From contig JAQXEE010000130.1 of the NCBI GenBank assembly GCA_029251005.1, positions 3,328 through 67,327 on the forward strand: 64,000 nucleotides of DNA, given 5' to 3'. The notes below the pieces were generated by a model, which was not told the DNA's origin, ran no database searches, and was given only the letters and a program-made list of their open reading frames with translations. Positions 153 to 1,439 of this stretch are shown here, in pieces (position 1 is the stretch's first letter; each line of letters opens with the position of its first letter). The translations under genes and the position numbers were made by a program. This DNA comes from Flavobacteriales bacterium (GTDB lineage: Bacteria > Bacteroidota > Bacteroidia > Flavobacteriales_C > GCA-002722245).

Positions 153-1439
153 ATGAGTTACATTTCAAAAGTTCAAGCAAGACAAATCCTTGATTCAAGA
201 GGAAATCCTACTGTAGAAGTAGAAGTAATTACAGATAATGGTGTTTTTGGTAGAGCAGCAGTTCCTTCTGGAGCTTCTACTGGTATTCATGAAGCCGTTG
301 AATTAAGAGATGGTGATAAGTCTACCTACTTAGGTAAAGGTGTTTTAAAAGCTGTTAAAAACGTTAATACTGTAATTAATGATGCATTAGTTGGAAAGCA
401 CATATACGATCAAAATGACGTAGATGCTACTATGATTGCTTTAGATGGTACTGCTAATAAAGGTAATTTAGGGGCAAATGCAATTTTAGGAGCTTCTTTA
501 GCTGTTTCTAAATGTGCTGCAGATAATGCAGGTTTACCATTATGTTAATATATTGGTGGTGTAAACGCGAACACGTTACCTATTCCAATGATGAATATTA
601 TTAATGGTGGTTCTCACGCTGATAATTCTATAGATTTTCAAGAATTTATGATTTCTCCAGTTGGTGCTGAGTCATTTTCACATGCCTTAAGAATGGGGAC
701 TGAGATTTTCCACAATCTTAAAGATGTATTGAAAGGAAAGGGGATGAGTACGAATGTTGGTGATGAGGGAGGTTTTGCTCCAAACTTAGGATCTAATGAG
801 GAAGCTTTAGAAGTTATTATGCAGGCTATCGAAAAAGCTGGTTACAGACCAGGTGAAGAGGTTTATATAACTATGGACGCTGCTGCTGCTGAATTCTATT
901 TGAAGGATGAGGGTATGTATCATTTGCATAAATCAACTGGAGAAAAATTATCTTCTTCCGATATGGTAAGTGTTTGGGCTGATTTAGCTGCTAAATACCC
1001 TATTATGTCTATCGAAGATGGTTTAGATGAAGATGACTGGAAAGGATGGAAAGAATTAACTGAGAAATTAGGAAATAAAATTCAATTGGTAGGTGATGAT
1101 TTATTTGTTACTAACGTTGATCGTTTAAAGCAAGGTATTGACCAAAATATAGCGAATTCTATCTTAGTAAAAGTTAACCAAATTGGTTCTTTAACTGAAA
1201 CTATTAATGCCGTTGAAATGGCTCATAGAGCTTCATATACATCGGTTATGTCACACAGGTCTGGTGAAACTGAAGATGTAACGATTGCAGATTTATCAGT
1301 AGCTCTAAACTGCGGTCAAATTAAGACTGGTTCTGCCTCTAGAACTGACCGGATTGCAAAGTATAACCAATTGCTTAGAATTGAGGAAGAATTAGGCTCT
1401 TCAGCTAAGTACTTAGGAAAAGATTTAAAGTTTGTCTAA
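153..1439 (+). pseudogene. eno: enolase (phosphopyruvate hydratase) interrupted by an in-frame TAA at 546-548; ORF pieces 153-548 and 588-1439 are in the same frame
   Basis: N-terminal piece [25 protein letters not shown]... and C-terminal piece ...[13 protein letters not shown]...SHRSGETED... are textbook enolase; reading through gives ...[27 protein letters not shown], which is colinear with the conserved enolase LPLYRYIGG...PMMNI segment. Confidence 0.8.

What the first reader, a model, noticed from the sequence alone, without database searches (positions are those of the whole stretch)
153..1439. Essential glycolytic gene eno carries an in-frame TAA
Enolase is split into 131-aa and 283-aa ORFs by a single in-frame TAA at 546-548. 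Both ORFs are in the same reading frame. The read-through translation ...LPLC*YIGGVN... is colinear with the conserved enolase LPLYRYIGG segment, so the codons TGT-TAA replace the expected Tyr-Arg. The downstream piece begins with Met-Met and is preceded by a purine-rich stretch, so a C-terminal fragment could be made, but the N-terminal domain is needed for catalysis. Possible explanations are a sequencing or assembly error, a very recent inactivating mutation, or a second functional eno copy elsewhere in the genome.
Basis: seen in the sequence. Interest (0 to 1): 0.5.

Follow-up and report, generated by a model that had tools for sequence, protein, structure and literature searches.

The report
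Lone stop codon in MAG enolase
The enolase gene in this marine Flavobacteriales metagenome-assembled genome really does contain an in-frame TAA, but the stop appears in this one assembly only and every other assembly of the same species has an intact gene, so it is most likely an assembly or sequencing artefact, or at most a very recent private mutation.

Summary

The window comes from an NCBI MAG ("Flavobacteriales bacterium", PGAP proteins MDG15182xx-83xx, 122-kb contig). An intact 428-aa enolase (P0121) matches the window's read-through product at every residue except C131→Y and *132→K. It is listed in 31 blocks of the gene index. All 10 conspecific contigs I fetched (97.4-99.7% nt identity) read TAT-AAA where the window reads TGT-TAA.

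The window carries three private substitutions within 14 nt: A544G, A546T and the synonymous G557T. No other difference within eno changes an amino acid. The stop allele is absent from 241 million JGI metagenome records, from GTDB species representatives and from a 153-billion-gene index.

TAA is the genome's main terminator. No other gene in the 64 kb is broken. I found no readthrough signal and no template-switch donor.

Best explanation, about 0.65: an artefact or unrepresentative consensus in the MAG. Main rival, about 0.27: a real, very recent, strain-private null mutation. Only the source reads can decide between them. Interest is low.

The parts
153..1439 (+). eno (enolase / phosphopyruvate hydratase) with one in-frame stop; the syntenic orthologue of intact 428-aa enolases
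   Evidence: The read-through product is 99.5% identical to P0121 over 428 aa. The gene order carA-eno-orf141-hemE is the same as in relatives.
153..548 (+). Upstream ORF of 131 aa, equal to the complete Enolase_N domain, ending at the premature TAA
   Evidence: PF03952, E = 1.6e-57, profile positions 1-127 of 131. This exact product is not on record in any public assembly.
543..548 (+). The lesion: codons TGT-TAA where all relatives have TAT-AAA (Tyr131-Lys132). The substitutions are A544G and A546T
   Evidence: All 10 conspecific contigs, all 7 sister-species contigs and 8 genomes from distant groups have TATAAA. Residue 131 is Tyr or Phe in 130 of 130 homologues and is never Cys.
557..557 (+). 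Third private substitution: G557T, synonymous GGG→GGT, 11 nt downstream of the stop
   Evidence: Three private changes within 14 nt has P = 0.007 for 38 private variants in 22.7 kb, or P = 0.0005 for 9 in 8.6 kb.
588..1439 (+). Downstream in-frame ORF of 283 aa (Enolase_C TIM barrel lacking residues 133-145). It starts at the first ATG after the stop, and nothing shows it is an independent gene
   Evidence: The only public records of this exact product are 7 Logan contigs that end 1 nt before the ATG, so those are truncated partial genes. There is no purine-rich leader.

Best explanation
The TAA is an anomaly of this one metagenome-assembled consensus and not a property of the organism. The species' real eno is the intact 428-aa gene seen in all other assemblies (TAT-AAA at codons 131-132).

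In this MAG, a 14-nt AT-rich stretch (TTATATAAATATATTGGG) was recorded with three wrong or unrepresentative bases: A544G, A546T and G557T. The likely causes are a low-coverage or erroneous read path, or a minority variant path, chosen by the assembler or a polisher. PGAP then treated the gene as an internal-stop pseudogene and issued no protein.

What is shown: the allele is private, the changes are clustered, the source is a MAG, and the gene is otherwise perfectly conserved. What is inferred: that the cause is technical and not a real mutation.
For: (1) The source is a MAG. Window proteins match MDG1518284.1-MDG1518338.1, 'MAG... [Flavobacteriales bacterium]', on one 122,238-nt contig. No protein is on record for either eno piece from NCBI.

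(2) The allele is private. Ten conspecific contigs from independent samples (97.4-99.7% nt identity over up to 11.4 kb) all have A544, A546 and G557. The intact protein P0121 differs from the window's read-through product only at residues 131 and 132, and is listed in 31 blocks of the gene index.

(3) The stop allele has 0 matches in 241 million JGI metagenome records, even with wobble positions left free. It has 0 matches among GTDB representatives, where all 8 hits are TATAAA. The 131-aa product is absent from the 153-billion-gene index.

(4) The anomalies are clustered. Three private substitutions fall within 14 nt, against a background of about 1.7 per kb. P = 0.007, or 0.0005 in the deeply covered first 8.6 kb.

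(5) The gene is under very strong purifying selection. Against the sister species there are 81 nt differences, of which only 3 change an amino acid apart from the lesion. Against conspecifics, all 6-9 other differences are synonymous third-position changes. Tyr131 is aromatic in 130 of 130 homologues. A majority null allele in a natural population is therefore unlikely a priori.

(6) Published base rate. Many PGAP internal-stop pseudogenes are assembly artefacts, MEGAHIT produced the most, and low coverage is the main driver (PMC11017572).
Against: The rest of the window looks like an accurate assembly. No other gene in 64 kb is broken. There are no private indels in 22.7 kb. The other private substitutions are mostly synonymous or intergenic (20 synonymous, 4 intergenic, 12 nonsynonymous), which is the pattern of real strain variation and not of random error.

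Short-read de Bruijn assemblers normally need several reads to support a path, so three errors in 14 nt require a local cause that I cannot demonstrate. I had no reads, coverage figures or assembler information. Real multi-nucleotide mutations do occur.
Confidence: 0.65

Rival explanations
1. The mutation is real, very recent and private to one strain. A single multi-nucleotide event, or two adjacent hits, changed TAT-AAA to TGT-TAA in the clone that dominated the sampled population. That clone lacks full-length enolase. It either survives for a while on mixed carbon sources entering above and below the block, or is on its way to being lost.
For: The assembly is otherwise clean and its private variants look biological, so the three bases were probably present in several reads. 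No further decay has occurred in eno, which fits a lesion of near-zero age. About 5% of single substitutions in eno would create a stop. From my own knowledge, not tested here: enolase mutants of some bacteria, such as B. subtilis, are viable on supplemented media.
Against: Enolase is needed for both glycolysis and gluconeogenesis, and here it is among the most strongly constrained genes. The window also encodes pgi, and its conspecific contigs carry iPGM and glycogen genes, so the pathway is in use. The allele appears in no other assembly or metagenome. A MAG is a population consensus, so the null allele would have to be the majority. It also needs two simultaneous changes plus a third nearby, and I found no templated mechanism for that.
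Confidence: 0.27
2. Decay of a redundant copy. The genome has a second functional enolase elsewhere, and this copy has started to become a pseudogene.
For: Nothing positive. It cannot be excluded because only 64 kb of the genome was available.
Against: This is the syntenic orthologue in the conserved carA-eno-orf141-hemE arrangement. The window has no other enolase-like sequence; the best secondary tblastn hit has E = 0.76. There is no relaxation of selection: 0 amino-acid changes outside the lesion versus P0121. All conspecifics keep this copy intact. The true pseudogene in this window, the DAO remnant at 4791-5464, looks quite different: it has a 519-nt deletion and a frame change, and it is shared by all conspecifics.
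Confidence: 0.04
3. The interruption is functional. Either the enolase is made by TAA readthrough or recoding, or it is made as two polypeptides, the N-domain (1-131) and the barrel (146-428, by reinitiation at ATG 588), which then assemble.
For: The stop falls at the boundary between the Enolase_N and Enolase_C domains, and an in-frame ATG-ATG lies 40 nt downstream.
Against: TAA terminates 34 of 51 genes in the window, and TAA-T, the context here, is the most common terminator with 18 of 51. No other gene carries an in-frame TAA. The stop is not conserved in any relative. The local RNA is no more structured than shuffled sequence, z = -0.34. There is no purine-rich leader before 588. A fragment starting at 588 would lack residues 133-145, and Tyr131 is also mutated to Cys, a residue never seen at that position. 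Rfam finds nothing there.
Confidence: 0.03

Closest known systems
Spurious 'internal stop' pseudogenes created by sequencing or assembly error (Cooley & Wright 2024, BMC Genomics 25:365, PMC11017572)
   Same: A single premature stop in an otherwise perfectly conserved core gene. The stop disagrees with near-identical genomes. The source is a metagenome assembly annotated by PGAP, which issues no protein for such genes.
   Different: That paper links spurious stops to assemblies with generally elevated error. Here the remaining 64 kb shows no other broken gene and no private indels. The error, if it is one, is isolated and local. I could not examine the reads.
Recent nonsense (loss-of-function) polymorphism, an incipient bacterial pseudogene
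   Same: A point-mutation stop codon with no secondary decay, private to one lineage.
   Different: Such alleles usually affect dispensable or niche-specific genes and are usually single-nucleotide changes. This one hits a central, single-copy, highly constrained gene and involves two adjacent substitutions plus a third nearby. Compare the fixed DAO pseudogene 3.3 kb downstream, which is shared by the whole species.
Programmed stop-codon readthrough, stop-codon reassignment, or naturally split genes
   Same: An in-frame stop inside a gene that looks functional on both sides, placed at a domain boundary.
   Different: There is no conservation of the stop, no reassignment signature (TAA is the main terminator), a strong termination context, no stimulatory structure and no initiation signal for the second piece.

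Membership tests
Enolase (phosphopyruvate hydratase; Pfam Enolase_N PF03952 + Enolase_C PF00113) | N-terminal enolase domain present | tested here: met
   PF03952, E = 1.6e-57, profile positions 1-127 of 131.
Enolase (phosphopyruvate hydratase; Pfam Enolase_N PF03952 + Enolase_C PF00113) | C-terminal TIM-barrel domain present | tested here: met
   PF00113, E = 3e-138 for 549-1436; closest solved structure is B. subtilis enolase 4a3r, E = 9.6e-184, using the intact conspecific P0121 as query.
Enolase (phosphopyruvate hydratase; Pfam Enolase_N PF03952 + Enolase_C PF00113) | Both domains encoded in one uninterrupted polypeptide of about 430 aa | tested here: not met
   TAA at codon 132 in the recorded sequence. 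All 130 homologues examined are uninterrupted.
Enolase (phosphopyruvate hydratase; Pfam Enolase_N PF03952 + Enolase_C PF00113) | Orthologous genomic position | tested here: met
   carA-eno-orf141-hemE-MFS in the window, in conspecifics and in the sister species.
Genuine decaying pseudogene | The disabling lesion is shared by independent genomes of the lineage | tested here: not met
   0 of 10 conspecific contigs carry it; absent from all collections searched.
Genuine decaying pseudogene | Relaxed selection: excess nonsynonymous changes or additional lesions | tested here: not met
   0 amino-acid differences from P0121 outside codons 131-132; all other nucleotide differences are synonymous third-position changes.
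Genuine decaying pseudogene | A functional paralogue or bypass elsewhere in the genome | not testable with these tools
   None in the 64-kb window. The other contigs of the MAG could not be retrieved.
Stop-codon reassignment or programmed readthrough | The stop codon occurs in frame in many genes or is rarely used as a terminator | tested here: not met
   TAA ends 34 of 51 genes; no other interrupted gene.
Stop-codon reassignment or programmed readthrough | The stop and its context are conserved in relatives | tested here: not met
   every relative has the sense codons TAT AAA.
Stop-codon reassignment or programmed readthrough | A leaky context or a stimulatory downstream RNA structure | tested here: not met
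   the TAA-T context is the most common terminator; z = -0.34 against shuffles; no Rfam match.
Assembly or sequencing artefact (spurious internal stop) | The allele is confined to a single assembly and contradicted by near-identical genomes | tested here: met
Assembly or sequencing artefact (spurious internal stop) | The source is error-prone, such as a MAG or low-coverage assembly | tested here: inconclusive
   One search shows it is a MAG. Coverage, platform and assembler are unknown. The rest of the window shows no sign of elevated error.
Assembly or sequencing artefact (spurious internal stop) | The reads contradict the consensus | not testable with these tools
   No read data were accessible.
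Template-switch or quasi-palindrome multi-nucleotide mutation | The mutant segment is a direct or inverted copy of nearby ancestral sequence | tested here: not met
   the longest donor is 4 nt (reverse complement) or 7 nt (direct), no better than the 8 control double substitutions (4-9 nt); palindrome pairing at 536-557 rises only from 8 to 9 of 11; no inverted repeat.

The most novel reading that the evidence does not exclude
The stop is real, and the strain still makes active enolase. It would do so either as two separately translated pieces that assemble, the N-domain (1-131) and the barrel (restart at ATG 588), or by low-level TAA readthrough. That would be a natural enolase split at its domain boundary in a free-living marine bacterium.
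Probability: 0.02. Interest if true: 0.6.

Novelty: not a real feature. Interest (0 to 1): 0.08.

Why it matters
It matters mainly for data quality. Taken at face value, this MAG would be scored as lacking enolase, which gives an incomplete glycolysis and gluconeogenesis pathway and a false inference of auxotrophy or dependency. The population data show that the species has an intact, strongly constrained eno.

If the reads proved the allele real, it would be a snapshot of a just-arisen null mutation in a core metabolic gene of an abundant marine flavobacterium. That would be of modest interest for studies of deleterious load in bloom-forming clones, but it would not be a new kind of biology.

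Tried and rejected
(1) Alternative genetic code or TAA as a sense codon. Rejected: TAA ends 34 of 51 genes and no other gene is interrupted.

(2) Programmed readthrough. Rejected: strong TAA-T context, no structure (z = -0.34), no Rfam hit, and the stop is not conserved.

(3) Quasi-palindrome or template-switch origin of the clustered changes. At first glance 546 and 557 seemed to improve a palindrome at 536-557. The net gain is only 8 to 9 of 11 pairs, 544 makes it worse, and a formal donor search did no better than control substitutions. No donor exists anywhere in the 64 kb; the best exact match is 11 nt and a search allowing up to 3 mismatches found nothing.

(4) The 283-aa ORF as an independently encoded gene. 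This was suggested by 7 Logan contigs carrying exactly that product. Rejected: all 7 contigs end 1 nt before the ATG, so they are truncated partial genes. An exact-product look-up can only return contigs that break at that spot.

(5) Searches for the stop allele elsewhere, all negative. Two metagenome scans, one specific to the stop allele with free wobble positions and one using the window's flanks with any allele, gave 0 hits. The second scan missed the conspecific wild type because it required T557, which later proved to be private to the window. One GTDB scan returned 8 hits, all wild type, none from the source genome. A gene-index look-up for the 131-aa product found nothing.

(6) Generally poor assembly. 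Not supported: there are no other split genes, no private indels, and the private substitutions are mostly synonymous.

(7) A second eno. None in the window.

Full report
OBSERVATION. The + strand of window 153-1439 encodes an enolase that is interrupted once. The ATG at 153 opens a 131-aa ORF that ends at TAA 546-548. The next in-frame ATG, at 588, opens a 283-aa ORF that ends at the natural TAA at 1437-1439. The first ORF is a complete Pfam Enolase_N domain (E = 1.6e-57) and the second is Enolase_C (E = 2.7e-134). The stop therefore sits at the domain boundary, and read-through translation is colinear with intact enolases. Two details are not. In this lineage the replaced residues are Tyr-Lys, not Tyr-Arg. 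And the 14 nt before ATG 588 (CGTTACCTATTCCA) are pyrimidine-rich, not purine-rich.

SOURCE. The window is 32% G+C and about 90% coding, with 51 ordinary long ORFs. Ten of its proteins were looked up by exact sequence. All belong to one NCBI record set, 'MAG... [Flavobacteriales bacterium]', with PGAP accessions MDG1518284.1 (hemE) to MDG1518338.1 on a 122,238-nt contig. The sequence is therefore a metagenome-assembled consensus and not an isolate genome. Neither eno fragment has an NCBI protein. That is what PGAP does with a gene it flags as an internal-stop pseudogene.

RELATIVES. A protein search found hundreds of intact enolases of 428-432 aa. The closest, P0001, is 99% identical and marine (Tara, JGI, ENA). 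Its DNA comes from a sister species, with 85-94% nt identity across the region and 81 differences out of 1287 within eno. Nearly all of those 81 are at third codon positions, and apart from the lesion only three change an amino acid.

Within the same 90% cluster is P0121, a 428-aa enolase identical to the window's read-through product at every position except C131→Y and *132→K. It is listed in 31 blocks of the gene index. I fetched nine P0121 contigs plus one near-clonal Logan contig, L032, which is 99.73% identical over 8.6 kb. All ten are conspecific (97.4-99.7% nt identity over up to 11.4 kb) and come from independent samples. All ten have A544, A546 and G557, giving TAT-AAA ... GGG. Every other difference from the window inside eno is a synonymous third-position change.

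Eight genomes as distant as Clostridium, Actinomycetota and Marinimicrobia share the very same CCATTATATAAATATATTGG. Residue 131 is Tyr or Phe in 130 of 130 homologues and is never Cys.

IS THE STOP ALLELE ANYWHERE ELSE? No.
- A stop-specific pattern with free wobble positions found nothing in 241 million JGI metagenome records.
- A GTDB-wide scan that accepted both alleles returned only wild-type sequences.
- The 131-aa product is not on record in a 153-billion-gene index.
- The 283-aa product is on record on 7 Logan contigs, but every one of them ends 1 nt before the ATG. These are partial genes cut by contig ends. An exact-product look-up can only return contigs that break at exactly that point, so they say nothing about an independent C-terminal gene. 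Logan contigs of this population overlap by 30 nt (L018 and L033), so the shared break implies an ordinary branch in the assembly graph.

THE LESION IN CONTEXT. I defined private variants as window bases that differ from every conspecific contig where at least 5 contigs cover the position. There are 38 of them in 22.7 kb: 20 synonymous, 4 intergenic and 14 nonsynonymous, the last figure including the two in eno. There are no private indels. Three of the 38 fall within 14 nt (544, 546, 557). For a uniform distribution that has P = 0.007, or P = 0.0005 using the 9 private variants in the deeply covered first 8.6 kb.

No other gene in the 64 kb is split. The adjacent ORF pairs I checked belong to different families (RF-1 domain, NUDIX, RsfS, FtsH, PRTase). 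The consensus is therefore generally good, and the eno lesion is an isolated local anomaly.

For contrast, the window holds a true pseudogene 3.3 kb downstream. The FAD-dependent oxidoreductase (DAO) gene is intact in the sister species. Here it survives only as residues 1-69 and 243-403 in different frames, after a deletion of about 519 nt. All conspecific contigs share that structure. That is what a fixed pseudogene looks like in this species, and eno does not look like that.

MECHANISMS TESTED.
- Recoding: TAA terminates 34 of 51 genes and TAA-T is the most common four-base stop signal, so the internal stop is in a normal, strong context.
- Readthrough: the surrounding RNA is no more structured than shuffled sequence (z = -0.34), and Rfam finds only a tRNA-Glu elsewhere in the window.
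- Templated multi-nucleotide mutation: positions 536-557 form a quasi-palindrome, but the three changes raise its pairing only from 8 to 9 of 11. A donor search, direct and inverted, within ±300 nt and across the whole window, does no better than the eight alternative double substitutions.
- Second copy: no other enolase-like sequence exists in the window.

INTERPRETATION. Several things are established. The stop is in the record. It is private to one MAG. It consists of two adjacent substitutions, with a third nearby. It hits two conserved residues of a gene that otherwise shows no amino-acid change and is under very strong purifying selection. The species at large has an intact eno.

Whether the three bases were in the organism's DNA is inferred, not shown. 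I favour an artefact or unrepresentative consensus, at about 0.65, for four reasons:
(a) A MAG base is a population call, and a majority null allele of a central single-copy gene is unlikely a priori.
(b) Clustered anomalies are more typical of local read or assembly problems than of independent mutations, and I found no templated mechanism.
(c) The allele is absent from every other data set.
(d) Published work shows that many PGAP internal-stop pseudogenes are technical, particularly with metagenome assemblers such as MEGAHIT and at low coverage (PMC11017572).

The main argument on the other side is that the assembly is otherwise clean, which implies that several reads supported these bases. 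For that reason a real, near-zero-age, strain-private null mutation keeps about 0.27. Decay of a redundant copy (about 0.04) and a functional split or readthrough enolase (about 0.03) are not supported.

VERDICT. In the report's categories it is best filed as 'not a real feature' of the organism. The alternative is an ordinary recent nonsense mutation. Only the source reads can settle it (see next steps). Interest: 0.08.

Noticed in passing
window 4791-5464 (+): A fixed pseudogene remnant of an FAD-dependent oxidoreductase (Pfam DAO; 403 aa and intact in the sister species, L001 9670-10881). Only residues 1-69 (frame 3) and 243-403 (frame 2, 84% identity) survive after a deletion of about 519 nt. 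All conspecific contigs share this structure and call only 44-aa and 71-aa ORFs there.
   Followed up: partly
window 587; loci L016-L022: Seven Logan contigs from seven different sequencing runs, all of this lineage, start at exactly window 587, 1 nt before ATG 588. This is probably a common de Bruijn branch (k = 31, 30-nt overlaps, implying a variant at 617 or 586) combined with the selection bias of an exact-product look-up. The alternative branch was not found in any of the 44 loci fetched by then.
   Followed up: partly
window 8835-8943 (recA, 8347-9351 +): Seven private substitutions within 108 nt, all synonymous, while the RecA protein is identical to one seen on 19 contigs. This looks like a short recombination tract imported from an unsampled lineage.
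   Followed up: no
window 10434-11975 (-): A 513-aa protein with only a weak Extensin_1 match in relatives. It carries a cluster of private nonsynonymous changes (11096-11155), and its length varies among conspecifics (493-513 aa). It may be a fast-evolving repetitive or surface protein.
   Followed up: no
window 14772-18158 (-): A 1128-aa multidomain protein: PLD-like nuclease, ResIII/SF2 helicase, DUF3427 and a C-terminal S24 (LexA-like) peptidase domain. This unusual fusion is conserved in the sister species as a 1126-aa form.
   Followed up: no
window 1610-2035 (+), with private changes at 1609 and 1615: A 141-aa ORF between eno and hemE with no Pfam match. It is conserved in position and length in conspecifics and in the sister species. 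The window has two private changes right at its start codon, at positions -1 and at codon 2 (synonymous).
   Followed up: no
window 3476-4789 (+): The MFS/ATG22-like transporter is called as 437 aa here and on a few contigs, but as 422 aa on most conspecific contigs and 442 aa in the sister species. The start codon is therefore uncertain.
   Followed up: no
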